Numbered from the stretch's first letter, positions 2,864-37,619 are shown. The stretch: 64,000 bases of DNA from an uncultured Gemmatimonadales bacterium (GCA_963740175.1 CAVUDL010000004.1:1600-65599); one strand, 5' to 3'. Numbers and translations are program-made. Notes: a model not told the origin generated them from the sequence alone.

Positions 2864-3153
2864 CGGATGATTGATTCCAGAACGAGGATATCGGGTAATT
2901 ATAGCGCACGAGGGAGGTCACCGCATCGTGCTCGTGCCGGACCGGGGCCAGCAGCCGGGGCCGCGCTGTCCGAGTAACCGCATAGCGTCGAACGATTTCC
3001 AGTTCGGGTCCAGAGCTGATGGCAGATGGTGACGCGCCACGCCTTGCACAAGTTTTGAGGGCGTGCATGTTATATACGTGATTCACCGGTGGCGCAGGCG
3101 CGCCGCGATACCGGCGGCGGGTGGCGCCGCACATGCGATGGGAGGGAGCGAAG

Positions 3154-5540: not shown

Positions 5541-5543
5541 TTC

Positions 5544-6017: not shown

Positions 6018-7371
6018 CCAGGGCTGCAGCCTTGCCCTGGCCGGTCTGCTGTTTCTCGGCTGCAAGGGTGTGGCCAGCGACGGAATTGCACTGGTCGGCG
6101 CCACGCTGATCGATGGCAACGACGGCCCCCCTATGCGGGACGCCGTGGTCGTGGTGCGCCGCGGCCGCATCGAATCGGTGAGCGAGCGGGGCGGGTTCGA
6201 GTTGCCGCGGAGGACCCGGGAGGTGGACGTCTCCGGTCGTTGGATCATCCCGGGACTGATCGACGCCCACGCCCATCTGAGCCCGGCCGCAACCTGGGCT
6301 CCTCCCCGGTATCTCGCCTGGGGTGTCACCACCGTACGCGACGTACACGGTGGAACCGCTTCCATCCCCCAGCTCCGCAAGATCGCAGATGGCAGTCCGC
6401 CCCGAAGCCCCAGGGTCTACGCCGCCGGCGCCATGATTGACGGGCTCCCCACCACCTATCCCGATGCCATCGGCGTCAACGGCGAGAAAGATGCCCGCCA
6501 GGGCGTCGATCGACTGGTCACGGCGGGAGCGGATCTGATCAAGGTGTACACCCGGGTCGATGCGCCCCTGCTTCGCGCCATTGTGGATGAGGCAAAGGCG
6601 TTCAACCTGAAGGTCACCGCCCACCTGGGCATGACCGACGCGGTCACCGCCGCGAAGATCGGTATCGCTGCGATCGAGCACATGAGCGGGGTGCCCGAGG
6701 CAGCGTCCCGCAGCCCCTCGGCTCTGATCACGGCACACTACCGCGGCTTCTATCCGGGGTGGACCGCCTCGGAACGAAGCTGGGCCGACCTCGACTCCGC
6801 CGCTCTTACTCGGGTGGCCCAGCGTCTGGCCGAGGCCGGGATCACCATCATCCCGACGCTCGTGTTGCATGAAACGTTGAGCCGGCTCAGAGAGAGGAGC
6901 CTGTTGAGAGACCCCGCCCTGGAGGATGTCCCGGAGGAGCAGCAAAGGGACTGGGATGTGCCCGGGATGATCAACCGCGCGGGCTGGGCCGACACCGATT
7001 TCGACGCCTTTCGCCGCTCCCGGCCGATGCAGGATCTGTTTGTGCGAGCCTTCGCCGCCGCCGGTGGGCGGATCGCGGCCGGTACCGATGCTTCGAACCA
7101 GATGCTGGTGCCGGGCTACAGCGAGCACCGGGAAATGGAGCTGCTGGTTCGAGCCGGCCTGACCCCGCGCGAGGCGCTCCGGGCCGCGACGCGAAATGCC
7201 GCGGTGCTCCTGGGCGCTGACTCGCTCGGGCTCATCGCACCCGGAAATGCGGCGGATTTGTTGGTGCTGTCCCAGGATCCCCTGGCCGATATCCGGAACA
7301 CCCGGGCCATTCAGGCCATCATGGCGCGCGGTCATCTGCTCGACGCGGACTCGATTCGCGCCACCTGGTAG
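6004..7371 (+). CDS. amidohydrolase family metallo-hydrolase (imidazolonepropionase-like), probable lipoprotein
   Basis: 455 aa. It has LLFLGC near the N-terminus, the HxH metal motif GLIDAHAHL, a later AGTDA stretch, and the ADLLVLSQDPLADI tail typical of this family. Confidence 0.85.
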   Translation: MIRANQGCSLALAGLLFLGCKGVASDGIALVGATLIDGNDGPPMRDAVVVVRRGRIESVSERGGFELPRRTREVDVSGRWIIPGLIDAHAHLSPAATWAPPRYLAWGVTTVRDVHGGTASIPQLRKIADGSPPRSPRVYAAGAMIDGLPTTYPDAIGVNGEKDARQGVDRLVTAGADLIKVYTRVDAPLLRAIVDEAKAFNLKVTAHLGMTDAVTAAKIGIAAIEHMSGVPEAASRSPSALITAHYRGFYPGWTASERSWADLDSAALTRVAQRLAEAGITIIPTLVLHETLSRLRERSLLRDPALEDVPEEQQRDWDVPGMINRAGWADTDFDAFRRSRPMQDLFVRAFAAAGGRIAAGTDASNQMLVPGYSEHREMELLVRAGLTPREALRAATRNAAVLLGADSLGLIAPGNAADLLVLSQDPLADIRNTRAIQAIMARGHLLDADSIRATW

Positions 7372-7373
7372 CG

Positions 7374-8309
7374 ATGCGATCGGTCGACCGTTCTCTGCCC
7401 GGTGACCAGACGGGACCCGACAGCGTACGCGACGGCATCGAGCGGCTGCGCCTGTTTTTTGCCGAGGGCACCACCCGTCAGGCGGTCCTGGCGCGGCAGG
7501 CACTGGAGCAGCCGGCACCCGGTGACGAGCTGCTGGCGCGCAGCCTGGTGGATGACATGCGCGCGGAAACACGTATGGACGGCAGCATCGCCGGCGATGC
7601 CATGGCTACGATATGGCGGGCCCACGAGCTGCTGGACCTGGGATCCGCTGCCGATCACGCCGGCACCGTACGAGTGCTGGGCTGGGTACTCGACCTGCAG
7701 ACCAAGCCAGGTGCGTTCAGCGAGGGGTGCAGTCCGCCTCGCCACGCCCAACGCACATGCGAGCACTTCATCTCCGGTTTCTTTTCGCCCGCGCCCGCGG
7801 AGCAGCGGTTTGCACCGGTGATGCTGCCCAATGGGAAGGTGTTCCGCGCCGAGCCGGGGGCGCGTTTTGCCGTCAGCTGCCTGGCGCTGCGGGCGGCGCT
7901 TCGGGGAAGGCTGGACCATCGTCCGCAGGTGCGCCAGCACGTTCTGAGTCTGATCCAGCTCCAGGAGCACTGGCACGATTGGAGCGGATACTTCTCGGCC
8001 GATGCGATCATCGCCGGCATCCATGCACTAGCGTTTGCGCCTCCCGAGCACCGCGAGATCCTCCCCCGGCTCGCTACCGTCGTCGCGGCCCATCAATCGG
8101 ACGACGGCGACTGGAAGCAGGCCGACCTGTTCCATACACTGGATGCGCTGCACGCGCTGCATACGCCCGACGCTCAGGCGGCGGTCCGCCGGGCGGTTCC
8201 CGCACTCCTCGCTCGTCAGAGGATCGATGGCAGCTTCGGCTCGACCGCCCAGCAGGAACGCGCCCTCATTGCCCTGCGCTCATTGATCTGGGTGGGGAAG
8301 GAGATGTAG
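7374..8309 (+). CDS. hypothetical protein (alpha-helical repeat; family not recognised)
   Basis: 311-aa ORF with G/C-rich third positions. Its ATG lies 2 nt after the upstream stop, and the selD start lies 1 nt after its stop. Confidence 0.55.
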   Translation: MRSVDRSLPGDQTGPDSVRDGIERLRLFFAEGTTRQAVLARQALEQPAPGDELLARSLVDDMRAETRMDGSIAGDAMATIWRAHELLDLGSAADHAGTVRVLGWVLDLQTKPGAFSEGCSPPRHAQRTCEHFISGFFSPAPAEQRFAPVMLPNGKVFRAEPGARFAVSCLALRAALRGRLDHRPQVRQHVLSLIQLQEHWHDWSGYFSADAIIAGIHALAFAPPEHREILPRLATVVAAHQSDDGDWKQADLFHTLDALHALHTPDAQAAVRRAVPALLARQRIDGSFGSTAQQERALIALRSLIWVGKEM

Positions 8310-18625: not shown

Positions 18626-19378
18626 ATGGAAATCCTTCGCTCTCCCCGCGTCACCCTCATCGCCCGGCCGGAGTTTCTCGAGCCGGCCCATCTGCCGGTC
18701 CAGTGGAAGGGCGACTCCAGCGATGGAGAGAAGATCGCCGAGTTTGCCGGGCGGCTGTGCTATATGAGCCAGCACAACCCGGCAGGACGCACCACCGCCG
18801 AATACCTCCGCAACATCCTGAAGCAGGGGCACGGGTCGGTGTTCGAGCATTCCTCCTACGTCATGCTGATCGAGGGTATCTCCCGCTCCTGCAGCCACGA
18901 GCTGGTGCGTCACCGGGCCGGTTGGGGCTACTCCCAGCTCTCCCAGCGGTACGTCGACGAGTCTCACGCCGCCTTCGTCATGCCTCCCGCCATCATGGGC
19001 GCCGCCGAGCTGGAGGCGGAGTGGACCAACCAGGTGAAGGCGGCGCAGGCGGCTTATGTGGCCTCGGTCGAGCGGCTGATGACGCGCTACGAGTGGGTCG
19101 AGGACAAGGTCCACCGCCGGAAAATGGCTCGCGAGGCGGCCCGCAGCGTCCTACCCAACGCCACCGAGGTCAAGATCGTGGTGAGCGCAAACGTTCGGGC
19201 CTGGCGCACCATGCTGGAGCTGCGACTGGGTGAGGGGGCCGAGCTGGAGATCCGCCGCATGGCCGTCGCCTGTCTCCGGGTGCTACAGCAGGAGGCGCCC
19301 GCGCTCTTCGACGACTTCGAGATCTATGCAACGACAGAGGGGAGTGAGGCGGGGCGGGTGGGGTTTCATAAGGTCTAG
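18626..19378 (+). CDS. thyX: FAD-dependent thymidylate synthase ThyX
   Basis: ThyX motif RHRxxxxxQxSxRY is present as VRHRAGWGYSQLSQRYV. I chose ATG 18626 (MEILRSPRV) because the longer start lies inside the repeat. Confidence 0.9.
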   Translation: MEILRSPRVTLIARPEFLEPAHLPVQWKGDSSDGEKIAEFAGRLCYMSQHNPAGRTTAEYLRNILKQGHGSVFEHSSYVMLIEGISRSCSHELVRHRAGWGYSQLSQRYVDESHAAFVMPPAIMGAAELEAEWTNQVKAAQAAYVASVERLMTRYEWVEDKVHRRKMAREAARSVLPNATEVKIVVSANVRAWRTMLELRLGEGAELEIRRMAVACLRVLQQEAPALFDDFEIYATTEGSEAGRVGFHKV

Positions 19379-19498
19379 TCGCCAGTCACGAGTCGCGAGT
19401 CACCAGCAACAGCACCTCATCCCGAGCTCCGCGAAGGACCCACTCCCTCGGCCTCCGAGCCCAGTAACTGGCAACTGGCGACTCGTGACTCGCGACTC
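19379..19498. repeat. ~120-nt dispersed intergenic element (copy E1) with AGTCRCG-heptamer inverted arms
   Basis: Arms are gtcgccagtcacgagtcgcgagtcacc and ggcaactggcgactcgtgactcgcgactc. The core agcaacagcacctcatcccgagc recurs at about 38.80 kb and 41.38 kb. Confidence 0.6.
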
Positions 19499-19536
19499 CC
19501 TCCAAAAACTCATTCCCACTTTTCCCCAAAAAACTA

Positions 19537-19565
19537 TTGTGTGACCAAACGCTTTTTCTTACCTT
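19537..19565 (+). promoter_or_regulatory. candidate sigma70-type promoter for the ATP-grasp/GNAT/KamA operon
   Basis: TTGTGT-N17-TACCTT, inside the only AT-rich stretch of this neighbourhood (19500..19633). Confidence 0.3.
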
Positions 19566-19633
19566 AGTTACGTCAATCGTCGCACTCGTCTCGGCTCGTC
19601 TCTCGCGGACGGCCTTTTTTGTAGAGGAAGCCT

Positions 19634-20737
19634 TTGGCAGTTCGGATCGGACTCGCCTTCAATCTCAAACCTGCGGCGCCGGCTAGTCCAGCCGGGGCGA
19701 AATCCGAATCCCCTTCTTCCGACGATCCCCCGAGTCGGGGTCTCCGCCCTGACCTTCATCAACCAGATCTGTACGCCGAGTGGGATGAGCCCGCAACCAT
19801 CGATGCGGTGGAGCGGGCGCTCAGCACCGTCGGCCAGGTGTACCGACTCGAGGCGAACGCCAGCTTCCCCTCGCGGCTCTCCCTGCTGCGTCCCGACTTC
19901 GTCTTCAACATCGCCGAGGGGCTCTATGGCCCCAACCGCGAGTCGCATGTCCCGGCCATCTGCGAGTTCCTCGGCGTGCCGTGTCACGCCTCGGATCCTC
20001 TGACGCTGAGCCTCGCGCTGCATAAGGCCCGAGCCAAGGAGATTCTTGCGCACCGGGGCGTTCCCACTGCCCCCTTCGTGCTGGCGCGGTCGCCTGACGA
20101 AGCCCGGCATGTGGCGCTCCCGTTCCCGCTCTTCGTGAAGCCCGCCTTCGAAGGATCCGGCAAGGGCGTCACGGTGAAGAGCCTGTGTCGGAACCGCTCT
20201 CAGCTGGTCCGTCAGGTCTCTCATCTCCTGGCGACTTACGCCGAGCCGGTGCTGATCGAGACCTATCTGCCCGGTCAGGAGTTCACGGTCGCCATCCTCG
20301 GCAACGGTGACGAAGCCCGCTGCCTGCCGATTATCGGCATGCGATTTGATATGCTCCCGCGCGGTGCCCCGCCCATCTATGGCTATGAAGCCAAGTGGAT
20401 CTGGGACACTCCGAGCAAACCGCTCGAGATCTATGATTGTCCGGCGAGCATCCCGGAGTCTCTGGCCGAGGAAGTTCGCGCCGCCGCACTGGCGGCCTAC
20501 CACGCCTTGGAATGCCGCGACTGGTGCCGCGTCGATATTCGCTGTGACGCCACTGGCCGCCCGCTGGTCGTCGAGCTCAACCCGCTGCCGGGCGTTTTGC
20601 CTGACCCGCGGGACCACTCCTGCTTTCCGAAGGCCGCCGCGGCGGCCGGTATGAGCTACGACGATCTCATCCGCACCGTCGCCGACATCGCCTGGCGCCG
20701 GATCAGCGGCCGTTCACTCCTGGCGGAGGTTGCCTGA
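19634..20737 (+). CDS. ATP-grasp amide ligase, D-Ala-D-Ala ligase-like (copy 1)
   Basis: 367 aa with a TTG start and GAGGAAG 6 nt upstream. Ddl-like features: FNIAEGLYG, PLFVKPAFEGSGKGV, LIETYLPGQEFTV, VVELNPLPG. Confidence 0.8.
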   Translation: MAVRIGLAFNLKPAAPASPAGAKSESPSSDDPPSRGLRPDLHQPDLYAEWDEPATIDAVERALSTVGQVYRLEANASFPSRLSLLRPDFVFNIAEGLYGPNRESHVPAICEFLGVPCHASDPLTLSLALHKARAKEILAHRGVPTAPFVLARSPDEARHVALPFPLFVKPAFEGSGKGVTVKSLCRNRSQLVRQVSHLLATYAEPVLIETYLPGQEFTVAILGNGDEARCLPIIGMRFDMLPRGAPPIYGYEAKWIWDTPSKPLEIYDCPASIPESLAEEVRAAALAAYHALECRDWCRVDIRCDATGRPLVVELNPLPGVLPDPRDHSCFPKAAAAAGMSYDDLIRTVADIAWRRISGRSLLAEVA

Positions 20738-21747
20738 TGAAAGTTGCGATCCTCTTCGATGCGGGCAGCGACGAGTGGAGTCCCCAGGACGTGGCCGCCG
20801 TGGTGGCCAACGTCCATGAGGTGCGAGACGTGCTGCGGCGCCGCGGCCATGAGGTCGAGCTGCTGCCGGTGCGGTTCGGGGACTTCCGCTGGCTCTCGCG
20901 CGCCCGGCGGGCGGACCTGGTCTTCAATCTCTGCGAGGGGATCAACGGCCACGCCCGCTTCGAAGACTTCGTCGTCGGCACCCTGGAGCTCACTGGCGTC
21001 CCGTTCACCGGCTGCCGCACCTGGCCCACCAGCGTCTGCCACCGGAAGCACGTCGCCAACACCCTTCTCTCATCCGCCGGCCTCCCGGTTCCGACGTACA
21101 TGCTGGCCCAGGCCAACAAGACCCCGTCCGAGTTCCCGCTCCCGGCCATCGTGAAGCCTGCCGCCGAAGACGCCAGCGTCGGGATCGACAATGGGGCGGT
21201 CTGCACCAGCAAGCGGGCCCTGAAGAAGCGGGTGGCTCAGATGCTGGAGCAGTTCGAGGAGGTGCTGGTCCAGGAATACATCGCCGGCCGGGAGTTCAAC
21301 GTCGGCTTCGTGGGTAAGCGGATGCTCCCTATCGCCGAGATCCGATTCGACACGCTGCCGGACGGTACCTGGCCCATCGTGAGCTACGCCGCCAAATGGA
21401 TTCCGGGCAGCCCCGAGGACGAAGGCACCATCCCCATCTGTCCCGCCGAGCTCGAGCCCGAGCTAGCCGGCCGCATCGCTCAGGTGGCCCGTTCGGCCTG
21501 GGAACACCTCTCTGAAGGTGAGGGCTATGGGCGGGTGGACATGCGGCTGGGCGAGGACGGCCAGCCCTATGTCCTGGAGGTGAACCCGTCGCCCGACCTC
21601 TCCAGCAACGCCGGGCTGGCCCGTATGGGCCGCGCCTTCGGGTGGAACTACGACGACCTGGTCATGCAGATCGTCGACGAGGCTCTCACCCGCTCGCAGA
21701 GCCATCGTGCCGCGGCCGCCCTCGTCAGCGGGGTGTCCGCCGCTTGA
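20737..21747 (+). CDS. ATP-grasp amide ligase, D-Ala-D-Ala ligase-like (copy 2)
   Basis: 336 aa. The ATG overlaps the upstream stop (TGATG). Motifs: FNLCEGINGH, AIVKPAAEDASVGI, VQEYIAGREFNV, VLEVNPSPD. Confidence 0.8.
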   Translation: MKVAILFDAGSDEWSPQDVAAVVANVHEVRDVLRRRGHEVELLPVRFGDFRWLSRARRADLVFNLCEGINGHARFEDFVVGTLELTGVPFTGCRTWPTSVCHRKHVANTLLSSAGLPVPTYMLAQANKTPSEFPLPAIVKPAAEDASVGIDNGAVCTSKRALKKRVAQMLEQFEEVLVQEYIAGREFNVGFVGKRMLPIAEIRFDTLPDGTWPIVSYAAKWIPGSPEDEGTIPICPAELEPELAGRIAQVARSAWEHLSEGEGYGRVDMRLGEDGQPYVLEVNPSPDLSSNAGLARMGRAFGWNYDDLVMQIVDEALTRSQSHRAAAALVSGVSAA

Positions 21748-22265
21748 GCGGCACCCTCGTCTCACCCCTTCTTCGCCACCTCAGCGTCGCCGACCGGGCC
21801 CGCATCGAGGAGATCACCCGTGCCGTTGGGCTCTTCCGCGAGGATGAGATCCCGGTGGCGCTCGAGGTCTTCGATGAGGCCATGGCGGCCGGGCCCGGCG
21901 GTTCCTATAACGTGCTGGGCGCCGAGGCTGATGGCCGGCTCGCCGGGTGGATCTGCTGGGGCCCCACGCCCTGCACCCTCGGCACCTATGATCTCTACTG
22001 GATGGCAGTGGACCCGGCGCTTCAGGGCTCCGGTCTCGGCACCGCCCTGATCGCCGAGATGGAGCGCCGCCTGCATGGTGCGGCGCGTCTCATCCTGGTG
22101 GAGACCGCGGGGCGGGCCGACTATCAGGCCACTCGCCGCTTCTACGAGGCGCGAGGCTACCGCGCGGTGGCCACGATCCCGGATTTCTACGCGCCGGGGG
22201 ACGATCAGGTGGTGTTTGTGAAGGACGTGAGCGGGACTAGGACAAGCGCGAGCGGTAAGCAGTAA
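21744..22265 (+). CDS. GNAT-family N-acetyltransferase
   Basis: TTG at 21744 overlaps the upstream stop (TTGA) and is the only plausible start in frame. The acetyl-CoA motif is VDPALQGSGLGTALI. Confidence 0.75.
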   Translation: MSGTLVSPLLRHLSVADRARIEEITRAVGLFREDEIPVALEVFDEAMAAGPGGSYNVLGAEADGRLAGWICWGPTPCTLGTYDLYWMAVDPALQGSGLGTALIAEMERRLHGAARLILVETAGRADYQATRRFYEARGYRAVATIPDFYAPGDDQVVFVKDVSGTRTSASGKQ

Positions 22266-22340
22266 GCGGAAAACCGAACGTGTCACCCTGAGCGAAGCGA
22301 AGGGGCCAAAGCTCCACCGCCCTTCGATGCGAGGAGACCC
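22266..22340. repeat. intra-operon repeat/hairpin (GTCACCCTGAGCGAAGCGAAGGGG type)
   Basis: gcgaagggg...ccgcccttcg can pair. The element lies between the GNAT stop and the KamA ATG. Confidence 0.4.
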
Positions 22341-23468
22341 ATGGAAAACTGGCAAGAGGTCCTCAGAAAGAACTCGATCGCCTCGCTCGACGCGCTGGCG
22401 CTGAAGTTCGGGCCCGAGAACTTTCCCGAGCTCGACCGCCTCAGGCAGGCGGCTGACAACTTCGAGTTCCGCATCTCGCCGGCCATGGTCGACCTCATCA
22501 AGTCGCCCGACGACCCGATGTGGCGGCAGTACGTGCCGTCGGTGGAGGAGCTGGACGTGGTGGACGGGATCGTGGACTCGCTCAACGAGGACGCGGACAG
22601 CCCGGTTCCGAACATCACCCACCGCTACCCGGACCGGGCCCTGTTCCTGGTCTCGCCCGTCTGCGCCACCTACTGCCGCTTCTGCACCCGGCGCCGGAAG
22701 GTGGGCGACCCCGAGAAGATCCCCATGTCCCAGTTCGAGAGCGCCTTCCGCTATCTGGAGGAGCACACCGAGATCCGGGACGTGATCATGTCCGGCGGCG
22801 ATCCGCTGCTGCTGAACGATCGGCGCCTGGAAGCGATACTGACCCGGCTTCGGTCCATCCCGCATATCCAGATCATCCGGATCGGCAGCCGGATACCATG
22901 TCACCTTCCCGAGCGGATCACGCCCGAGCTCTGCGCACTGCTGAAGCGGTTCCACCCGCTCTTCATCAACACCCACTTCAACCACCCGGACGAGCTCACT
23001 CCCGCGGCCGTGGCGGGGCTCGGCATGCTGGCCGATGCGGGTATTCCGCTGGGCTGTCAGACGGTGCTGCTCCGGGGCGTCAACGACACCCCCGCCGTCA
23101 TGATGGAGCTGATGCACCGGCTGCTGATGGCCCGGGTCCGGCCCTACTACATCTATATGGCCGACCAGGTCGCCGGGGCCGAGCACTTCCGCACCTCGGT
23201 TCAGACCGGCATCGAGATCATGCGGGCACTTCGGGGCTGGACCAGCGGGCTGGCCATCCCGTACTTCGTGATCGACGCGCCCGGCGGTGGGGGTAAGATC
23301 CCGATCCTGCCGGAGTACGTCGAGAGCATGAACGAAGAAGAGGTGGTACTGAAGAACTTCCGGGGCGAGCGGTACGTCTATCGCCAGCCCCGCGAGGAGG
23401 CCGGGGTCATCGAGCTGAAGAAGCCGCGGAGGCGGGGATCGAAGTCGCCGAAGCGGAAGACCGCTTAG
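22341..23468 (+). CDS. KamA-family radical SAM lysine 2,3-aminomutase-like enzyme
   Basis: 375 aa. Radical-SAM cluster motif CATYCRFCTRRRK, then SGGDPLLL and a KamA-like C-terminal region. Confidence 0.85.
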   Translation: MENWQEVLRKNSIASLDALALKFGPENFPELDRLRQAADNFEFRISPAMVDLIKSPDDPMWRQYVPSVEELDVVDGIVDSLNEDADSPVPNITHRYPDRALFLVSPVCATYCRFCTRRRKVGDPEKIPMSQFESAFRYLEEHTEIRDVIMSGGDPLLLNDRRLEAILTRLRSIPHIQIIRIGSRIPCHLPERITPELCALLKRFHPLFINTHFNHPDELTPAAVAGLGMLADAGIPLGCQTVLLRGVNDTPAVMMELMHRLLMARVRPYYIYMADQVAGAEHFRTSVQTGIEIMRALRGWTSGLAIPYFVIDAPGGGGKIPILPEYVESMNEEEVVLKNFRGERYVYRQPREEAGVIELKKPRRRGSKSPKRKTA

Positions 23469-23511: not shown

Positions 23512-25107
23512 CTATCTGTCCCGATCAACTCGCCACCGGGCCAGCCCGCTGGCCCACGAGTACGGATCCAGCTCGACCCCCTCCAGTCTGCGACTTACCG
23601 CCGCCACGTTGGCCAGCGAGTAGAGAAAGATCGCTGGCGCATCGGCGTTGAGCGTGTCCATCGCTTCGCGCCAGAGGCGTCTGGCTCCGCCCACATCGGC
23701 TCGGCTGGAGGCCGCCTGTACCAGCGAATCAAAAACCGGATTGGCGTAGCGCCCGTGGTTGGCCACCCCCCAGCCCGCGCGAGTCCACTGGTCGATCAGG
23801 CCTCGTGGGCTGGGCTCGTCCAGATAGGCGCCGATATAGCTGTCAAATCGCCCCTGAGCGAGCCGCTCCTGGAACACCGGAAAATCCACTGCGGTCACCG
23901 TCGCCTTCACTCCCGCCCTCCGCCACGCCTCCTGGATTGCGAGCGCCAGCTGCCGCCGAGTGGAACTGGTCGAGGGAACCAGAATGTCGATGCTGGCTGG
24001 GGTGTGACGCCGTTTCACTCGGCTCATCGACTCCCTTGTCTGCGCGGAGTCGAAGGGCAAGGTTTTCGTCTCGTCATCCCAGATCCAGAGCAGCTGTGAC
24101 ATGGGGCCGGGAGGCACCTTGGTTTCCTCGCCGAAGAGCGCGCGTGCGAGGGCTGGGCGGTCCACCGCCTGCGTCAGCGCCCGCCTCAGCTCCACGTCCC
24201 CAAGCACCGGATGCGGCCGCCCGGCCTTGTCAGCCACCCGGAAGGCCAGAAAGCCATACACGGCGGCCGGATAAGGCTCGGTCCGAAGACTCGTGTCACG
24301 CGCCACGCGCTGAACCCGGTCGGGCGACCCTACCGTCTCCATCACGTCGGCCTCGTGGCTCAACAGCAGGTTCAGCGCCGCCTCGGGATCGGGGGCGAAC
24401 CGCCAGACGGCGCGGCGAATGGTGGGAAGATCGTCGTTTCTCCGAGCCGCACCGGTATCGGCCACCAGGGTGAGGAAGCGGCCTCGATCCCAGCTCTGTA
24501 CTCGATAAGGACCGCTTCCAACCAGGTGCGCCAGGCTCGTATCGGCAGCCCAGCGAGCGCGGGGGATCGAATCCCAGACGTGACGGGGCAGGATGCGTAC
24601 GTGGTAGGTGGCATCGTACAACTGCTCGGGCGATGGCTCCGAGAAACTGATCCGGACCGTCGTCGAATCCTCCGCCGCCGCCCGCACCTTGCCGGCGAGA
24701 TACCCCCGGGCCACGGCATCGAGCGTCGAATCAGTGAAGGCGTCGAATGAGAAGACCACGTCATCGGCGGTCACCGGGCGGCCATCGTGCCAGCGCGCCC
24801 CGGGCCGTAGCCGAAAGCGCCAGCTCAGGGAATCGATCCGTTCCCACTCCTCCGCGAGGCCGGGCCGAAACGATTTTGGATCGATGGGTGAGGCGCGCGG
24901 CGCCAGATAGGCCAATCGCTCGAACACCTGGTCGCTGACGTCGCGGCCCACGGTTTCGCCGATCAGAGGCGGAAGAAGGCTGGACGGCTCACTGGTGGCG
25001 GAAACGACAACCGTTCCGCACTGGTCACAGTCGGAACGGCGATCCTGGCAGCCCACTATCAAGCTCAGCGCCAGGAGAGATAGCCCCGGCCTCAGACCCA
25101 CGGTCAT
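23512..25107 (-). CDS. ABC transporter substrate-binding protein, family 5 (peptide/nickel type), lipoprotein
   Basis: ORF 23512..25182. I chose the internal ATG at 25107 (MTVGLRPGLSLLALSLIVGC lipobox) because it removes the overlap with the upstream gene. Confidence 0.8.
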   Translation of the reverse strand: MTVGLRPGLSLLALSLIVGCQDRRSDCDQCGTVVVSATSEPSSLLPPLIGETVGRDVSDQVFERLAYLAPRASPIDPKSFRPGLAEEWERIDSLSWRFRLRPGARWHDGRPVTADDVVFSFDAFTDSTLDAVARGYLAGKVRAAAEDSTTVRISFSEPSPEQLYDATYHVRILPRHVWDSIPRARWAADTSLAHLVGSGPYRVQSWDRGRFLTLVADTGAARRNDDLPTIRRAVWRFAPDPEAALNLLLSHEADVMETVGSPDRVQRVARDTSLRTEPYPAAVYGFLAFRVADKAGRPHPVLGDVELRRALTQAVDRPALARALFGEETKVPPGPMSQLLWIWDDETKTLPFDSAQTRESMSRVKRRHTPASIDILVPSTSSTRRQLALAIQEAWRRAGVKATVTAVDFPVFQERLAQGRFDSYIGAYLDEPSPRGLIDQWTRAGWGVANHGRYANPVFDSLVQAASSRADVGGARRLWREAMDTLNADAPAIFLYSLANVAAVSRRLEGVELDPYSWASGLARWRVDRDR

Positions 25108-25118
25108 GGTAGCCTCTG

Positions 25119-26735
25119 TTAGGCTGCCTCGGCGATCCGGGTGGCCGAGCGCAGAAACGCCTGATACACGTCTGGTCGCCACCAGCTACGGACCTCCGCG
25201 ATCTTCACCAGCGCGTCCCGGAATGATAGGGCCGGACGATAGCTGCGTGTAGTCGTGAGCGCGTCGAAAACGTCCGCGATGCAGATGATCTGCGCGTTGA
25301 CCGGGATCTCATCGCCCCGGAGCCGGTCGGGATAGCCGGTGCCGTCATACCGCTCGTGGTGCCAGCGGATGATCGGCTTGATGTCCCAGGGGAAATCGAC
25401 TGTGGCCAATAGCTCCAGGCCCCAGGCCGGATGCATCTGGATCACCCGCAATTCGTCGGGGGTGAGGGGCCCCGCCTTGTTGAGGATCTCGTGCGGGACC
25501 CGCACCTTGCCCAGGTCGTGCAGATAGGCGCCGATCCGGATGGTGGTTTGCTGCGCATCATCTAGACCCAGCTCCCGGGCCAGGGCCACGGCATAGCCGG
25601 CGACCCTCTCACAGTGCCCGTGGGTGTAGCTGTCGGACGATTCGATCGATTGACCCCAGTCCCGCACCACCGCAAGGTAGGTCTCTTCCAGCCGGCCGAC
25701 CTTGGTCGAGACATCCACCAGGTCCACCCGCGCATCCAGCCGGCCGAACAGACGGTGGGCCGCGTTCAGCAGCCGCAGCGCCTCCTGGTTACGCCCCATA
25801 CTCTGATACAGCAGCGCCATCTCGCGGTCGGCTTCGGCTTCGCTCAGGATCGACCCGGTGCTCACCGCCAGCTCGATGGCTGAGCGCAGGCGTGACTCGG
25901 CCAGCGCGTGGCGGCCGGTCTCCCGATAGACGCGGCCGATCACCTTATAGGCATCGGCCTTGTCGAGCTTGGCCCCGAGCTGGTCGAAAATTCCCAACGC
26001 GGTCTCGGCGTTCTGCCGCGCCTGGTCGTAGCGCTGCCGAGCCAGGTGCACCTCGGAGTGGTTCAGCAGGCCCAGCCCCTGGAGATGGATGTCCCCAATC
26101 CGCTCGGCGATCTCGAAGCTCAGGCTAAAGTAGCGGTCGGCGTCGTCCCACAGGTCCCGGTCGGCACTCACCATGCCCAGGTTGTGGTAAGCGATGGCGC
26201 AGCCCCGGTCGTCGCCGGCGCTCTCGAACGCCTGAAGCGAGCGCTGGTAGTGGGTGAGCGCCTCGGCCAGGGACCCCTGGATGTTGGCCAGGATGCCCAG
26301 GTTCTGCTCGGTCCGTCCCCGGAGCTCGGCGCTGGCTCCGCCCAGCTCCAGCGCCCGGTAGAACTTTTCCCGGGCTGCTTGGATGGCGCCGCTCTCGAAA
26401 TCGAAGCCCGCCAGAGCATTGAGGGCCTCGGCGGCAAGAAGGGTATCGCCGATTTCGTTGGCGGTGCGTTGGCTGCGCTCGCAGAGCTCGCGGGCTCGCA
26501 CTCGCTCGTCCCGGTGGTGACAGACCACGCCCAGGCGGCGCAATGCCTCCGCCAACACTTTCCGCTCCCCGTCCCGTTCGGCGGCCTCGATGGCAGCGGT
26601 GTAACACTGGAGGGCCTCGGCCATGCAGCCGGTACGCTCATGGGCCCGGGCATCGCGCAAAAAATCCCCGGCACGGTGGGGCCCGCTGTCCTGGGCCCAC
26701 CGTGCCTGGGGGAGAGTGCTTCGATCGGGTATCAC
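25119..26735 (-). CDS. TPR-repeat protein with C-terminal HD-GYP domain (putative c-di-GMP phosphodiesterase)
   Basis: 538 aa with multiple TPR-like repeats (A..AL..LG), then HDLGKVRVP and HHERYDGTGYPDRL. Confidence 0.85.
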   Translation of the reverse strand: MIPDRSTLPQARWAQDSGPHRAGDFLRDARAHERTGCMAEALQCYTAAIEAAERDGERKVLAEALRRLGVVCHHRDERVRARELCERSQRTANEIGDTLLAAEALNALAGFDFESGAIQAAREKFYRALELGGASAELRGRTEQNLGILANIQGSLAEALTHYQRSLQAFESAGDDRGCAIAYHNLGMVSADRDLWDDADRYFSLSFEIAERIGDIHLQGLGLLNHSEVHLARQRYDQARQNAETALGIFDQLGAKLDKADAYKVIGRVYRETGRHALAESRLRSAIELAVSTGSILSEAEADREMALLYQSMGRNQEALRLLNAAHRLFGRLDARVDLVDVSTKVGRLEETYLAVVRDWGQSIESSDSYTHGHCERVAGYAVALARELGLDDAQQTTIRIGAYLHDLGKVRVPHEILNKAGPLTPDELRVIQMHPAWGLELLATVDFPWDIKPIIRWHHERYDGTGYPDRLRGDEIPVNAQIICIADVFDALTTTRSYRPALSFRDALVKIAEVRSWWRPDVYQAFLRSATRIAEAA

Positions 26736-28116: not shown

Positions 28117-28214
28117 GCGTGAGCGGGGCTAGAACAAGCGTGAGCGGGACCCTAGACTCGCAGCCCCGCTCACCGCTCACGTTCTAGTCCCGCTTACGTT
28201 TTAGCGGCTCACGC
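28117..28214. repeat. inverted repeat built from GCGTGAGCGG-type units
   Basis: gcgtgagcggggctagaacaagcgtgagcggg pairs with gccccgctcaccgctcacgttctag...gcggctcacgc. The right end overlaps the EF-G paralog stop. Confidence 0.55.
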
Positions 28215-30263
28215 TGTCTGCAGCTGTTCTTTCTGGTTCTCCTCCGCCACCTTTGTCGCGATCTCGGGAGGCGCTTCGGCATACCCGTGTCGCTTCTGCC
28301 GGTGCGTGCCCCTCCCGTGGGTGATCGAATGCAGCGTCGTCGAATACTTGTAGAGCTCGGCCTCCGGCACGATGGCCCGCACTTTGGTCAATCGCCCGTC
28401 CGGCTCGGTGCCGAGGATGTGCCCCCGCCGAGCGCTGAGGTCGCCCATGACGTCGCCCAGTACGTCGTCCGGCGCCCAGGTCTCCACCTCCATCAGCGGC
28501 TCCAGCAACACCGGCCGGGCCTTGGGAGCCACGTTCCTGAAGGCGAGAATTCCGGCCATCTTGAACGACATCTCGTTGGAATCCACGTCGTGATAGGACC
28601 CGTCGAAGCACTCGACCTTGAAGTCCACCAGCGGATATCCTGCGATCACACCCCGAACGGCCGCTTCCTGAATGCCGCGGTCCACCGCGGGCACGTACTT
28701 GCCCGGGATCACCCCGCCCACAATCTCGTCCTCGAACTGGTACCCTGACCCGCGCGCCAGCGGTGCGATCCGGATCCAGCAGTCGCCATACTGACCCCGC
28801 CCGCCGGACTGCTTCTTGTGCTTGCCTTGCCCCTCGGCCTTTCCCTTGATCGTCTCACGGTACGCGATCCGCGGACGCACCAGCTCGGCGTGGACCCCGA
28901 ACTTGCGCTCCAGGCGATTGAGGATGGTGTCGAAGTGGCGCTCGCCCATCCCATGAATCAGGGTCTGGCCCAGCTCCGAGCTGTACTCGAAGTGGAAGGT
29001 CGGGTCTTCCTCGTGCAGCTTGTGGAGGCCGGCGGCCAGCTTGTCCTCCTCGCCCCGCTGCTTCACCACCACCGCCGAGGTGGCGACGGCCTCGGGGAAC
29101 GGGATCGGCGGTAGCCGCACCGGATCCTCGCGCCAGCAGAAGGTGTCGCCCGTGTGGGTGTCCTTGAGTTTGGCGACGGAGCCGATGTCTCCCGCGGACA
29201 GCCTCTCGACCTCGAAACGCTCCTTTCCCTGCTGCACCGACAGGTGATTCAGCTTCTCGATGGTCTCGTGCTCGGCATTGAAGACCTCGCCTCCGTTCCT
29301 GACCTCTCCGGTGTAGAGCCTGAACAGGGTCACATCGCCTACGTGCGACTCGGACAGAGTCTTGAAGACCCGCCCAACCAGGGGGGCGTCGGCCGGCGGC
29401 GTGACTTCTGCGGGTGAGGGGAACAGCTCCACCATCTTCTTGAGCAGCGTGCGGGTGCCGTAGGTCAGCTCGCCACTGCCGCAGAACAGGGGGACGATCT
29501 CGCCGTTGATGATGGCCTTCTTCACCGCACGGATGAAGGCATCGCGCGTGATTTCCCCGCCACCCAGATATCGCTCGATCAGCTCGTCGTCGGTGGACGC
29601 GACCGCCTCGGTGAGCTGTTCGCTGTACTGCTTGAAGAGCGACTCGTACTCAGGGGGGATGGGCACCACGTCGTATTCGCCGGTCTTGGTGCCCTTCTTA
29701 TAGAAGTGGCAGTGGCCGGAGAACAGGTTGATGATGCCATGGAAGTCGTGCCCGTCGCCCACGGGGATCTCTACCGGAACCACCTTGGGGGTCAGATGGG
29801 CCTTCACGTCATCGAAGACCCGCTCGAAGTCGGCGTGCTCCTTGTCCATCAACGAAACGAAGAGGATCCGGGGCAGATGCAGCTGGTCGCAGACTTCCCA
29901 GACTTTCTCGGTGCCCACCTCCACCCCGCCCGTGCCGCTGAGGACCACGACGGCGGCATCGGCCGCGTGCAGGCCGCTGACGACCTCGCCGAAGTAGTCG
30001 AGATATCCGGGAGTGTCGATGAGGTTGATCTTGGTGTCGAGCCATTCGGCGTAGCCGAGGCCCAGGTTGATGGAATGCTTGCGGTTGATTTCGTCGGGAG
30101 AGTAGTCGGTGAGCGTGGTACCGTCTTTGATCGAGCCGTGGCGCCGGCTGGCGGCGGAAACGAAGGCGAGCGCGTCAACCAGGGATGTCTTACCGCTGGC
30201 GCCGTGCCCGACGAACGCCACGTTTCTTATGGCGCTGGAGCCATAGACCTTCATGGCCTCCAC
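28209..30263 (-). CDS. elongation factor G family GTPase (non-canonical EF-G paralog)
   Basis: 684 aa. G1 motif GHGASGKT and G3 motif DTPGYLDYFGE, with a five-domain EF-G length and a C-terminal EFG_IV/C-like region. Confidence 0.9.
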   Translation of the reverse strand: MEAMKVYGSSAIRNVAFVGHGASGKTSLVDALAFVSAASRRHGSIKDGTTLTDYSPDEINRKHSINLGLGYAEWLDTKINLIDTPGYLDYFGEVVSGLHAADAAVVVLSGTGGVEVGTEKVWEVCDQLHLPRILFVSLMDKEHADFERVFDDVKAHLTPKVVPVEIPVGDGHDFHGIINLFSGHCHFYKKGTKTGEYDVVPIPPEYESLFKQYSEQLTEAVASTDDELIERYLGGGEITRDAFIRAVKKAIINGEIVPLFCGSGELTYGTRTLLKKMVELFPSPAEVTPPADAPLVGRVFKTLSESHVGDVTLFRLYTGEVRNGGEVFNAEHETIEKLNHLSVQQGKERFEVERLSAGDIGSVAKLKDTHTGDTFCWREDPVRLPPIPFPEAVATSAVVVKQRGEEDKLAAGLHKLHEEDPTFHFEYSSELGQTLIHGMGERHFDTILNRLERKFGVHAELVRPRIAYRETIKGKAEGQGKHKKQSGGRGQYGDCWIRIAPLARGSGYQFEDEIVGGVIPGKYVPAVDRGIQEAAVRGVIAGYPLVDFKVECFDGSYHDVDSNEMSFKMAGILAFRNVAPKARPVLLEPLMEVETWAPDDVLGDVMGDLSARRGHILGTEPDGRLTKVRAIVPEAELYKYSTTLHSITHGRGTHRQKRHGYAEAPPEIATKVAEENQKEQLQTA

Positions 30264-31158: not shown

Positions 31159-32376
31159 TTACTTCAGCCAGTTCACGAAAAAGGTGATGATGATCGCATT
31201 CGTGAAATCGATGAAGAACGCCCCTACCAGCGGGACTATAAGGAAAGCCCGGGGCGCGGCTCCGAATCGAGCCACCAGGGCCCGCATGTTGGCCACCGCA
31301 TTCGCCGTGGTGCCGAGCACGAAGCCGATGAACCCGCTCGCCATCACCGCCGACTCGTAGTCCTTTCCCATGACCCGGAACGAGACGGTCAGCGCGAACA
31401 GCAGCACCAGAATCACCTGGGCCACCAGGATCACGAAGAGTGGCAACGCCAATCCCGCCAGCTCCCACAGCTTCAGGCTCATGAGAGCGACAACCAGGAA
31501 GATGTTCAGCGCCAGATTGCCCATGAACTCCATGGCCCGCTGGTCGATCCGAAGCCACCGGGTGCCGTCATCCAGATTTCGGAGCACTGAGGCCACCAGC
31601 ATCGCGCCGATGTACCCCGGCATGGTGATCCCCCGCGACTGGATGAAGGAGCTGACCAGGCTACCCAGCCCCATGGCCAGGGCCAGCACCGCCATGTTGC
31701 GCATGAGTGAGGTGTCTTCCCGATCAACCTCCACCACCAGCGTCTCCGACGGAGATTCCAGCTCCGATTCCCTTTCCTGCGCCGCCATGGCTCCGGAGCC
31801 GGTGGGCTTGAGATTGAAACGGCGGATCAGGTAGGTACCGACCGGCCCCCCAACTAACCCGCCACATACGATGCCGGCGGTCGCCGCTGTGAGCGCCAGC
31901 GGCCCTGCGCCTCTCAGCCCCGCCTGCTCGAACACCGGCGCAAAGGCGAGCCCGGTAGCGGGGCCACCCACCAGCGTCACCGAGCCCGCCATGACGCCGA
32001 GCAACGGGTTCTCGCCGAACCCAAGCGCGATCGCGATGCCGGTGAAGTTCTGCACGAAGCAGAAGATGGTTGCGAGCACCAGGAAGATCAGCACCTGGAT
32101 GCCACCGACCCGGAGCAGCGCCAGGCTCGCGCTCATTCCGATGGAGGTGAAGAAGGCGACGCTGAGCGTGGACTGAAGCGCGGTGTCGAGCTGGACGGCG
32201 ACACCCCGCTCACGCAGCAGGATCACCAGCAGCGTGAAGCCGAGCCCACCCACCACGGCCGCCGGAATGTTGAGCCGGTCCAGCCAGCGGACCCGCTTCT
32301 TGAGCTGGATGCCGCCGAAGTAGACCAAGGCGGCCAGGCTCAGCGTCTGGAGCAAGTCGAGCTTGATGTCGGTCAT
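31159..32376 (-). CDS. gltS: sodium/glutamate symporter GltS
   Basis: 405 aa, collinear with the E. coli GltS sequence as I remember it: LKLWELAGLALP, GKDYESAVMASGF.GF.LGTTANAVANM, VPLVGAFFIDF.NA. Confidence 0.9.
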   Translation of the reverse strand: MTDIKLDLLQTLSLAALVYFGGIQLKKRVRWLDRLNIPAAVVGGLGFTLLVILLRERGVAVQLDTALQSTLSVAFFTSIGMSASLALLRVGGIQVLIFLVLATIFCFVQNFTGIAIALGFGENPLLGVMAGSVTLVGGPATGLAFAPVFEQAGLRGAGPLALTAATAGIVCGGLVGGPVGTYLIRRFNLKPTGSGAMAAQERESELESPSETLVVEVDREDTSLMRNMAVLALAMGLGSLVSSFIQSRGITMPGYIGAMLVASVLRNLDDGTRWLRIDQRAMEFMGNLALNIFLVVALMSLKLWELAGLALPLFVILVAQVILVLLFALTVSFRVMGKDYESAVMASGFIGFVLGTTANAVANMRALVARFGAAPRAFLIVPLVGAFFIDFTNAIIITFFVNWLK

Positions 32377-37510: not shown

Positions 37511-37619
37511 AGCGCCTCCGGGGGTGGGGCTATTGGGACTCGCGACTGGTTTCCTGCTGCTGATAACTTACAGGCCAAATGCGGTTCGGGCGATGAAGCA
37601 GGCTTAACCGGGATATCGC

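What the first reader, a model, noticed from the sequence alone, without database searches (positions are those of the whole stretch)
19634..23468. ATP-grasp x2 / GNAT / KamA-like operon: candidate pathway for a beta-lysine-derived peptide or solute
Four co-directional genes are translationally coupled: a TGATG overlap at 20735..20739, a TTGA overlap at 21744..21747, and a 75-nt hairpin-bearing gap before the last gene. They sit behind the only AT-rich promoter-like gap in the area. KamA-family radical SAM enzymes (here CATYCRFCTRR) make beta-lysine. A GNAT next to the aminomutase parallels ablA/ablB (N-epsilon-acetyl-beta-lysine osmolyte) and B. subtilis yodP-kamA. Two Ddl-like ATP-grasp amide ligases belong to neither known pathway, and no EF-P or EpmA context is present. 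My inference is ligation of beta-lysine, or its acetyl derivative, to one or two further amino acids. The product would be a small peptide-like metabolite or compatible solute, or possibly a protein modification. I vaguely recall comparative-genomics predictions of ATP-grasp/aminomutase neighbourhoods but know of no experimental characterisation.
Basis: partly seen in the sequence, partly recalled or inferred. Interest (0 to 1): 0.7.

Follow-up and report, generated by a model that had tools for sequence, protein, structure and literature searches.

The report
Conserved beta-lysine peptide-ligase operon, product unknown
A soil Gemmatimonadales bacterium carries a four-gene operon (two D-Ala-D-Ala-ligase-like enzymes, an acetyltransferase and a lysine 2,3-aminomutase) that recurs, often as fused genes, in at least six other lineages, and it probably makes an undescribed small acetylated beta-lysine peptide.

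Summary
Four co-directional genes occupy 19634-23468: AG1, AG2, a GNAT and a KamA-family enzyme. The stated overlaps and the 75-nt gap are present.

The functional link is real. KamA directly follows the GNAT in 53 of 66 informative Gemmatimonadota loci. The same four domains recur in Nitrospirota, Omnitrophota, Spirochaetota and Gammaproteobacteria. Fusions exist in several combinations: KamA-AG1, AG1-KamA, AG1-AG2 and AG1-AG2-GNAT.

The aminomutase keeps the lysine-pocket residues (D293, D330, K337, R134). It scores closest to AblA and well below the EpmB cutoff.

Both ligases keep the Ddl catalytic residues but fall below every Ddl cutoff. The GNAT is not AblB-like; it belongs to the uncharacterised family of PDB 2R7H.

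Best explanation (inferred, not shown): KamA makes beta-lysine, AG1 and AG2 ligate it into a di- or tripeptide, and the GNAT caps an amine.

The product, and its role as solute, exported metabolite or oligomer, remain unknown. I found no published characterisation.

Caveats: 10 of 66 loci lack KamA, and a few lack the GNAT.

A conserved promoter-like block and a terminator-like leader hairpin precede AG1.

The parts
19534..19567 (+). Conserved AT-rich promoter-like block: CTATTGTG (TTGTGT as a -35-like hexamer), a 17-nt spacer, then CTTTTTCTTACCTTAG (TACCTT as a -10-like TAnnnT hexamer).
   Evidence: ATTGTG and CTTA..TTAG are invariant or nearly invariant across 22-25 Gemmatimonadales loci, while the flanks vary. 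The 12-mer occurs only once in the window. The simple sigma-70 scan did not call it. Its reading as a promoter is inference.
19593..19620 (+). Leader hairpin (GGC-T-CGTC / 7-nt loop / GACG-GCC) followed by T6, which looks like a terminator or attenuator. It ends 13 nt before the start codon. The SD-like sequence AGAGGAA lies at 19623-19629.
   Evidence: The terminator-like site was called at 19596-19612 plus a T run. The hairpin is kept in 21 loci, and 3 pairs show compensatory changes. Its folding energy is not exceptional (z 0.74). No Rfam family matches. Any regulatory role is inferred.
19634..20737 (+). AG1: a Ddl-like ATP-grasp amide ligase of 367 aa. Residues about 16-45 form a disordered low-complexity insert. 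This is the paralogue found fused to KamA in other phyla.
   Evidence: Matches PF07478 at E 3e-35. Scores 165 bits on NF002378 against a cutoff of 243. The AlphaFold2 model has pLDDT 91.6, and its best PDB matches are Ddl at TM 0.70/0.83 and 25-28 % identity. The Ddl catalytic residues are invariant. Fusions are shown.
20737..21747 (+). AG2: a second Ddl-like ATP-grasp ligase of 336 aa. It is 34 % identical to AG1 and belongs to a distinct subfamily. Its ATG overlaps the AG1 stop codon.
   Evidence: AG1-AG2 tandem fusions occur in many lineages.
21744..22265 (+). GNAT N-acetyltransferase of 173 aa from the TTG at 21744. It belongs to the family of PDB 2R7H.
   Evidence: Matches PF13508 and PF00583. 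Its best NCBIfam hit is RimI at 43.7 bits, below the cutoff of 86.4, with no AblB-type hit. Matches 2R7H at E 1e-33. Orthologues in other phyla are 32-39 % identical and share motifs.
22341..23468 (+). KamA-family radical SAM/PLP lysine 2,3-aminomutase of 375 aa. The LAM C-terminal part is shortened and the protein ends in a basic tail.
   Evidence: Scores 283 bits on TIGR00238 (cutoff 199), 433 on AblA (cutoff 525) and 231 on EpmB (cutoff 369). Matches 2A5H at E 9e-110. C125, C129, C132, R134, D293, D330 and K337 are conserved.

Best explanation
The operon encodes a short biosynthetic pathway for a beta-lysine-containing peptide-like metabolite.

**Step 1.** The KamA-family enzyme isomerises L-lysine to beta-lysine using radical SAM and PLP. 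This rests on conserved residues, not on an assay.

**Steps 2 and 3.** AG1 is the Ddl-like ligase found physically fused to KamA in other phyla. It would join beta-lysine to a second amino-acid-type substrate through an acyl-phosphate. AG2 would add a further unit, or would pre-form the partner dipeptide. These steps are inferred from three features: intact Ddl catalytic residues, the retained acceptor-carboxylate arginine, and an acidic motif at the donor-ammonium position.

**Step 4.** The RimI-like GNAT would acetylate a free amine and neutralise its charge. The recurring domain order KamA, AG1, AG2, GNAT suggests that acetylation comes last.

**Product.** The most likely product is a small N-acetylated di- or tripeptide. 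It would serve as a cytoplasmic solute or an exported metabolite.

**Regulation.** Expression appears to start from a conserved promoter. The transcript passes through a leader that carries a terminator-like hairpin.
For: **Conserved gene order.** AG1, AG2, GNAT and KamA are colinear in 53 of 66 informative Gemmatimonadota loci.

**Unbiased cross-phylum loci.** These four were found through AG-AG tandem proteins, not through KamA:
- a 5.7-Mb genome and a gammaproteobacterium, both with a divergent MFS transporter;
- a spirochaete;
- a locus with an AG-AG-GNAT triple fusion.

In all four, KamA lies immediately upstream and a GNAT follows or is fused.

**KamA-AG1 fusions.** They occur in Deltaproteobacteria, Ca. 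Magnetoovum, Omnitrophota and an archaeon. AG2 and the GNAT follow in two of these.

**Fusion census.** Among the 150 best cluster representatives there are 34 AG-AG tandems, 3 KamA-AG proteins and 1 AG-KamA protein.

**Lysine pocket.** C125/C129/C132, R134, D293, D330 and K337 are kept in all 11 module KamAs. AblA is the best-scoring NCBIfam model for the window enzyme (433 bits) and for the three cross-phylum KamAs scanned (475-511 bits).

**Ligase active sites.**
- Ddl K97, K144, E187, K215, R255, D257 and N272 are invariant in both ligase subfamilies.
- Ddl His63 is replaced by Glu in at least 90 % of the aligned sequences.

**Hints of a small-molecule product.**
- MFS transporters lie beside the module, and one GNAT is fused to a deacetylase domain (GNAT-HDAC-GNAT).
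- A Thioflavicoccus plasmid pairs an AG1 homologue with KamA and with genes for diaminobutyrate and diaminopropionate synthesis.
Against: No product has been observed, and substrate identities are inferred.

- Ten of 66 Gemmatimonadota loci keep AG1-AG2-GNAT with no adjacent KamA. Three others carry a divergent KamA-family gene in that position. The ligase pair may therefore not strictly need beta-lysine, or KamA may sit elsewhere in those genomes.
- Three loci (L078-L080) and the deltaproteobacterial locus lack the GNAT.
- No transporter or salt-related gene belongs to the window operon.
- KamA scores below the AblA equivalog cutoff, so arginine or ornithine cannot be excluded as substrate.
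- D293 and D330 as determinants of lysine specificity come from my recollection of the LAM structure literature, not from a tool result.
Confidence: 0.55

Rival explanations
1. The ligase pair acts iteratively and builds an oligomer or polymer that contains beta-lysine. This would be a cationic poly- or oligo-beta-lysine, or a cyanophycin-like reserve or envelope polymer. The GNAT would cap or neutralise it.
For: - Related 'type B' modules join AG-KamA to a cyanophycinase-family Peptidase_S51, either as a neighbouring gene or as a fused domain. They also include a PaaK/F390-like adenylating enzyme.
- The deltaproteobacterial locus has three ATP-grasp domains.
- There are two ligases, as there would be for two alternating bond types.
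Against: - No S51 peptidase, primer-binding domain or polymer-export gene is present in the window or in the Gemmatimonadota loci.
- From my own knowledge, Ddl-type ATP-grasp enzymes are typically single-turnover dipeptide ligases.
- The MFS transporter and the deacetylase fusion in relatives fit a small molecule better.
Confidence: 0.15
2. The enzymes modify a macromolecule. They would attach beta-lysine, or a short beta-lysyl peptide, to a protein, to peptidoglycan or to a lipid. This would be analogous to RimK, tubulin-tyrosine ligase or EpmA.
For: - The GNAT's best family match is the protein N-terminal acetyltransferase RimI.
- In the Omnitrophota locus, a LysW-like zinc-ribbon carrier protein and a RimK/LysX-like ATP-grasp enzyme flank the module.
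- Beta-lysine is already known as a protein modifier, on EF-P.
Against: - No conserved candidate target gene accompanies the module across phyla.
- The RimI match is far below cutoff (44 against 86 bits).
- No EF-P or EpmA gene is nearby.
- The ligases are Ddl-type, not RimK-type.
Confidence: 0.1
3. [quoted passage not shown] The two ligases would serve an unrelated function and be neighbours by accident.
For: A KamA beside a GNAT is the AblA/AblB arrangement. KamA scores best against the AblA model.
Against: - KamA-AG, AG-AG-GNAT and AG-AG fusions tie the ligases to the other two genes.
- The order and overlaps of the four genes are conserved.
- The GNAT gives no AblB-type match.
- AG1-AG2-GNAT persists in loci where KamA is absent.
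Confidence: 0.04

Closest known systems
AblA/AblB pathway for N-epsilon-acetyl-beta-lysine (methanogens and some bacteria), and B. subtilis yodP-kamA
   Same: A lysine 2,3-aminomutase with the same pocket residues lies next to a GNAT. AblA is the best-scoring model for the aminomutase.
   Different: - Two Ddl-like ligases are integral to the module and are found fused to KamA or to the GNAT.
- The GNAT belongs to another family (2R7H/RimI-like) and shows no AblB-type match.
- KamA falls below the AblA equivalog cutoff.
- Salt induction has not been tested.
N-acetylated peptide solutes and transmitters made by a GNAT plus an ATP-grasp enzyme: bacterial NAGGN (Ngg with AsnO) and animal NAAG (NAT8L with RIMKLA/B). 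This comparison comes from my own knowledge.
   Same: The logic is the same: an acetyltransferase works with ATP-grasp amide ligase(s) to give a small N-acetyl di- or tripeptide.
   Different: - Those ligases are RimK- or cyanophycin-synthetase-like, not Ddl-like.
- They use no beta-amino acid and no radical SAM enzyme.
- Homology was not tested here.
D-Ala-D-Ala ligase (DdlB, VanA) and Ddl-type amino-acid ligases
   Same: The fold is the same (TM 0.70/0.83). The ATP-binding and catalytic residues K144, E187, K215, R255, D257 and N272 are conserved.
   Different: - Scores are below all Ddl cutoffs.
- His63 is replaced by Glu, and Tyr216 by Trp, Lys or Glu.
- The omega-loop region carries an insertion.
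- There are two paralogues in tandem, and no cell-division or cell-wall gene context.
EpmB/EpmA/EF-P beta-lysylation
   Same: It uses a KamA-family aminomutase that supplies beta-lysine, and that enzyme has a shortened C-terminus.
   Different: - The EpmB model scores 231 bits against a cutoff of 369.
- No efp or epmA gene is adjacent.
- The ligating enzymes are ATP-grasp proteins, not a LysRS paralogue.
Cyanophycin synthetase and cyanophycinase
   Same: ATP-grasp peptide bond formation is involved. Some relatives of the module carry a cyanophycinase-family S51 peptidase.
   Different: The window has no Mur-ligase-like domain and no S51 peptidase. The S51 match is below cutoff (45 against 127 bits).

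Membership tests
KamA family radical SAM/PLP aminomutases (TIGR00238) | Score above the curated family cutoff, together with the CxxxCxxC cluster motif and the PLP lysine | tested here: met
   Scores 283.4 bits against a cutoff of 199.2. C125, C129, C132 and K337 align with 2A5H.
Lysine 2,3-aminomutase AblA/KamA (equivalog TIGR03820) | Score above the equivalog cutoff | tested here: not met
   Scores 432.7 against 525.4. Module KamAs from other phyla score 475-511, also below the cutoff.
Lysine 2,3-aminomutase AblA/KamA | Asp293 and Asp330, which bind the lysine epsilon-ammonium, and Arg134, which binds the carboxylate (2A5H numbering; these roles are recalled from the literature) | tested here: met
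   All three residues are conserved in the window enzyme and in 10 other module KamAs.
AblA/AblB N-epsilon-acetyl-beta-lysine pathway | An AblB-type beta-lysine N-acetyltransferase as the partner | tested here: not met
   The GNAT hit only RimI, PRK03624 and AAC(6') models, all below their cutoffs. It belongs to the 2R7H family. That the library holds an AblB model is my assumption.
AblA/AblB N-epsilon-acetyl-beta-lysine pathway | Salt-induced expression and accumulation of the solute | not testable with these tools
   This needs transcript and metabolite measurements.
EpmB/EpmA/EF-P modification system | Score above the EpmB equivalog cutoff | tested here: not met
   Scores 231 against 369.3.
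EpmB/EpmA/EF-P modification system | Adjacency to efp or epmA | tested here: not met
   Neither domain appears among the neighbours scanned in the window or in the called genes of L001 and L082-L091.
Cell-wall D-Ala-D-Ala ligase (Ddl) | ATP-grasp fold with the Ddl catalytic residues | tested here: met
Cell-wall D-Ala-D-Ala ligase (Ddl) | Score above the Ddl subfamily or equivalog cutoffs | tested here: not met
   AG1 scores 165.1 and AG2 142.0 against 243 for NF002378. All other Ddl and Van models score lower still.
Cell-wall D-Ala-D-Ala ligase (Ddl) | mur/fts (cell division and cell wall) gene context | tested here: not met
   The neighbours are thyX, an FAD oxidase, DUF116, a GNAT, KamA and an SBP_bac_5 protein.
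GNAT family of PDB 2R7H ('putative D-alanine N-acetyltransferase', function untested) | Full-length sequence similarity | tested here: met
   E 1.1e-33 over residues 15-161.
Cyanophycin-type polymer systems | An S51 cyanophycinase and/or a Mur-ligase-like domain in the locus | tested here: not met
   Both are absent from the window. S51 is present only in the distant type-B relatives L084 and L086.
NAGGN / NAAG-type N-acetyl-peptide synthesis | Homology of the ligase to Ngg or RIMKL | not tested
   The resemblance is one of logic only. No reference sequences were compared.
Known anti-phage defence systems (PADLOC) | Any model match | tested here: not met
   None of the four proteins matched any family.

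The most novel reading that the evidence does not exclude
A four-enzyme cassette (lysine 2,3-aminomutase, two dedicated Ddl-type ligases and a capping acetyltransferase) makes a so far undescribed N-acetyl-beta-lysyl peptide metabolite. The cassette is widespread in uncultured soil and sediment lineages: Gemmatimonadota, Nitrospirota, Omnitrophota, Spirochaetota, Proteobacteria and some archaea. In Gemmatimonadales it is controlled by its own conserved leader attenuator, which responds to an unknown signal.
Probability: 0.45. Interest if true: 0.7.

Novelty: new variant of a known kind. Interest (0 to 1): 0.6.

Why it matters
- **An unknown metabolite.** Beta-lysine is known in bacteria as an osmolyte precursor, an EF-P modifier and an antibiotic building block. 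A dedicated, widely conserved ATP-grasp route that turns it into a peptide would add a new small metabolite, or a new class of them. Gemmatimonadota are among the most abundant soil phyla and remain poorly cultured. My recollection is that they favour dry soils; this was not checked here.
- **New enzymes.** AG1 and AG2 would be Ddl-type ligases that accept a beta-amino or diamino acid. That would be useful for beta-peptide biocatalysis.
- **Better annotation.** The many genes now labelled 'D-alanine--D-alanine ligase' in this family are probably misannotated.
- **Directly testable.** The prediction can be tested by expressing a 3.8-kb fragment.

Tried and rejected
1. **Riboswitch in the leader.** An Rfam scan of 19300-19720 at E up to 10 gave only spurious miRNA-precursor hits to the long inverted repeat. 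No L-box or other riboswitch was found.
2. **Sigma-70 consensus scan.** It found no promoter. The promoter proposal rests on conservation only.
3. **Hairpin stability.** Neither the leader hairpin nor the hairpin in the 75-nt gap folds better than shuffled sequence.
4. **Defence system.** No PADLOC match.
5. **EpmB/EF-P and genuine Ddl.** Both were rejected on HMM cutoffs and on gene context.
6. **AblB identity of the GNAT.** Rejected.
7. **Related-loci search with broad alignments.** The accepted 4-sequence alignment returned only Gemmatimonadota among the 80 loci kept, out of 591 confirmed. Cross-phylum context therefore had to come from individual look-ups, some of which were chosen through KamA fusions and are biased.
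8. **Literature.** Nine searches found no characterisation. The comparative-genomics paper on amidoligases by Iyer and colleagues (2009) may have predicted such neighbourhoods. It is not held, so prior prediction cannot be excluded.
9. **Rhizobial plasmid homologues of AG1.** These are about 36 % identical and sit with a CapA-family protein or alone, without KamA. They belong to a different context.
10. **Lost scripting machine.** It failed. As a result, no KamA phylogeny with reference clades and no automated census of the later loci could be made.

Full report
**1. Observation**

The window comes from a Gemmatimonadales bacterium. The closest homologues of the first gene are named so by their sources.

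Four + strand genes fill 19634-23468:
- AG1 at 19634-20737, 367 aa, TTG start;
- AG2 at 20737-21747, 336 aa;
- a GNAT at 21744-22265;
- a KamA-family gene at 22341-23468, 375 aa.

Pfam and NCBIfam confirm the domains.

- TGATG at 20735-20739;
- TTGA at 21744-21747;
- a 75-nt gap before the last gene.

Homologues start the GNAT at the equivalent of 21744. The inverted repeat in the gap is real. It is no more stable than shuffled sequence, and the gap length varies among relatives.

GC falls to about 0.55 upstream of AG1.

**2. What the proteins are**

*KamA.*
- It passes the KamA-family model (283 against 199 bits).
- It scores best against AblA-type lysine 2,3-aminomutase (433 bits against a cutoff of 525).
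- It scores lower against the glutamate (380) and arginine (308) aminomutase models and against EpmB (231 against a cutoff of 369).
- It aligns with C. subterminale LAM (2A5H) at E 9e-110.
- The cluster cysteines, Arg134, Asp293, Asp330 and Lys337 are present. They are also present in ten KamAs from equivalent modules in other phyla.
- From the LAM literature as I recall it, Asp293 and Asp330 hold the epsilon-ammonium of lysine, and they are Lys and Asn in glutamate 2,3-aminomutase.

*AG1 and AG2.*
- They are 34 % identical to each other.
- Both match Ddl models, but far below the cutoffs (165 and 142 against 243 bits).
- The AG1 model is confident (pLDDT 91.6). Ddl structures are its closest PDB matches (TM 0.70/0.83, 25-28 % identity).
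- In an alignment with E. coli DdlB, the residues K97, K144, E187, K215, R255, D257 and N272 are invariant in 15 domains of both subfamilies. Both are therefore predicted to be active ligases that keep the acceptor-carboxylate arginine.
- His63 of DdlB is Glu in at least 90 % of the aligned sequences. An acidic motif, AE[FW]D in AG1-type domains, lies where Glu15 of Ddl binds the donor ammonium.
Residues 63-303 agree with the HMMER alignment.

*GNAT.* It is not AblB-like. Its best NCBIfam hit is RimI at 44 bits, below cutoff. It is a clear homologue (E 1e-33) of PDB 2R7H. That entry carries only a putative name, with no tested function given.

**3. Conservation**

A scan of one genome per GTDB species confirmed 591 relatives of AG1. 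The best 80 are all labelled Gemmatimonadota, apart from two MAGs with other labels.

The tblastn census, with ORF inspection of the doubtful cases, covers those 80 loci plus L001, 81 in all. It gave the following.

| Outcome | Loci |
|---|---|
| Contig ends too early to tell | 15 |
| KamA directly after the GNAT (one copy frameshifted, in a MAG that appears to be a long-read assembly) | 53 |
| A divergent 446-462-aa KamA-family gene in that position | 3 |
| Unrelated genes in that position | 10 |
| Total | 81 |

The divergent genes are 29-31 % identical to the window KamA and score below the family cutoff.

Three loci lack the GNAT.

The upstream genes thyX, FAD oxidase and DUF116 are syntenic. 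I take this to be lineage synteny rather than a functional link.

**4. Beyond the phylum**

An exhaustive search of 50 %-identity cluster representatives found 958 clusters with E below 1e-30 to AG1. Among the best 150 were these fusions:
- 34 AG-AG tandem proteins;
- three KamA-AG1 fusions;
- one AG1-KamA fusion;
- one AG-GNAT fusion.

Gene context of the KamA-AG fusions:
- Deltaproteobacteria: KamA-AG, then AG, then AG.
- Ca. Magnetoovum: KamA-AG, AG, GNAT.
- Omnitrophota: KamA-AG, AG, GNAT. A LysW-like zinc ribbon and a RimK/LysX-like ATP-grasp enzyme flank the module.
- An archaeon: KamA-AG plus a 450-aa unknown protein.

A second architecture, 'type B', consists of a PaaK/F390-like adenylating enzyme, AG-KamA and a cyanophycinase-family S51 peptidase. 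The peptidase is sometimes fused.

Four loci were reached through AG-AG tandem proteins, so they are not biased towards KamA. All four have KamA immediately upstream and a GNAT downstream or fused. Two of them have a divergent MFS transporter. In one, the GNAT is part of a GNAT-HDAC-GNAT protein.

GNATs from these loci are 32-39 % identical to the window GNAT and share its motifs. Three of their KamAs were scanned, and they again score nearest to AblA (475-511 bits) and far from EpmB.

A Thioflavicoccus plasmid places an AG1 homologue next to KamA and to genes for diaminobutyrate and diaminopropionate synthesis.

**5. Mechanism**

*Shown.* The four genes, their family membership, the conserved catalytic and lysine-pocket residues, the conserved gene order and the fusions.

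*Inferred.*
- KamA supplies beta-lysine.
- AG1 uses beta-lysine directly, because it is the paralogue fused to KamA.
- AG2 adds or prepares a second partner.
- The GNAT acetylates a free amine last. The recurring order is KamA, AG1, AG2, GNAT, and its nearest family is an N-terminal acetyltransferase.
- A small N-acetyl di- or tripeptide is favoured for three reasons. Ddl-type ligases act on small molecules. Relatives carry MFS transporters and a deacetylase fusion. No conserved protein target accompanies the module.

Loss of KamA in 15 % of Gemmatimonadota loci, and loss of the GNAT in a few, shows that the ligase pair is the constant core. It also warns that beta-lysine may not be obligatory in every lineage.

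**6. Regulation**

Two features upstream of AG1 are conserved across 20-25 Gemmatimonadales loci, while the flanking sequence varies:
- a block ATTGTG-N17-TA(C/A)(C/T)TT at 19534-19567;
- a hairpin followed by T6 at 19593-19620, just before the Shine-Dalgarno-like sequence.

Three stem pairs show compensatory changes. The block is unique in the window. No Rfam family matches, and the folding energy is unremarkable.

I read this as a promoter followed by a leader with a terminator-like element. This reading is inference.

**7. Comparison and novelty**

The nearest known systems are these:
- AblA/AblB, which has the same aminomutase type but a different GNAT and no ligases;
- the GNAT plus ATP-grasp logic of NAGGN and NAAG synthesis, an analogy recalled from my own knowledge;
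- Ddl itself, which shares the fold and catalytic residues, although membership fails on score and context;
- EpmB/EF-P, rejected as above.

Nine literature searches found no characterisation or explicit prediction. The 2009 amidoligase survey that might contain one could not be read.

I class the finding as a new variant of a known kind. It is a well-supported pathway of unknown product.

Noticed in passing
window 19377-19406 and 19468-19497: A 30-nt inverted repeat (87 % complementary, 61 nt apart) lies between thyX and the operon promoter. It is built from heptamer units AGTC[GA]C[GC]. Rfam gave only spurious miRNA-precursor hits. Weaker copies of the 14-mer lie at 37535, 38868 and 41770. 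It may be a thyX terminator or a REP-like element.
   Followed up: partly
window 19534-19633: A promoter-like block and a leader with a terminator-like hairpin are conserved upstream of AG1. They are also present in lineages whose cluster lacks KamA (L001, L031, L036), where about 25 extra nt separate the T run from the ribosome-binding site. This is a candidate attenuator with an unknown signal.
   Followed up: partly
L007 12706-14094; L012 12631-13971; L014 12706-14094: In three Gemmatimonadales MAGs the usual KamA is replaced, at the same position, by a divergent 446-462-aa KamA-family protein. It is 29-31 % identical and scores 159 bits on TIGR00238 against a cutoff of 199. In the two aligned (L007, L012) it keeps D293 and D330, but it has CGHC in place of CR[FH]C and a shifted PLP-lysine motif.
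   Followed up: partly
L084 6682-10835; L086 1024-5196: A second module architecture consists of a PaaK/F390-synthetase-like adenylating enzyme, an AG-KamA fusion and a cyanophycinase-family Peptidase_S51. The peptidase is fused as S51-AG-KamA in L084. It has no GNAT and no second Ddl-like ligase.
   Followed up: partly
L085 6287-6472 and 10829-11812: In an Omnitrophota MAG the module is flanked by a LysW-like zinc-ribbon protein (PF21344, 29.4 bits against a cutoff of 27) and a RimK/LysX-like ATP-grasp enzyme. This hints at an amino-group carrier protein variant.
   Followed up: no
L093 (Thioflavicoccus mobilis plasmid pTHIMO01), locus positions 2557-8038: The genes run diaminobutyrate transaminase, SbnA, an SbnB-like cyclodeaminase and a Ddl-like ATP-grasp enzyme, with a KamA-family gene convergent on them. 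This looks like a small cluster for a peptide of diamino acids, carried on a conjugative plasmid.
   Followed up: no
L088 10385-15974; L090 11610-15998: Next to the module in two gammaproteobacterial-type genomes lies a cluster on the opposite strand. It holds an AstE/AspA-family protein, a RimK-like ATP-grasp enzyme, a 7TM transglutaminase-like protein and a RimB-like protein, plus an M14 peptidase in L088. It is another predicted peptide-ligase system, and any link to the module is unknown.
   Followed up: no
window 23512-25182 (-) and 25119-26735 (-): A family-5 solute-binding protein (Opp/Dpp type) converges on KamA, with no permease gene seen beside it. A TPR plus HD-GYP-type protein follows. 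The binding protein lies downstream of KamA in many Gemmatimonadales loci. It could bind the peptide product, or this could be mere synteny.
   Followed up: no
L008 and L026: Two MAGs are labelled Solirubrobacterales and Bacillota. Yet they carry the Gemmatimonadales-type locus, with AG1 84 % and 78 % identical and the same upstream synteny (FAD oxidase, thyX; also DUF116 in L026). Binning or labelling errors are likely.
   Followed up: no
window 28209-30263 (-), 31159-32376 (-): An EF-G-like GTPase and a sodium/glutamate symporter (GltS) lie downstream of the operon. No link to the operon is evident.
   Followed up: no
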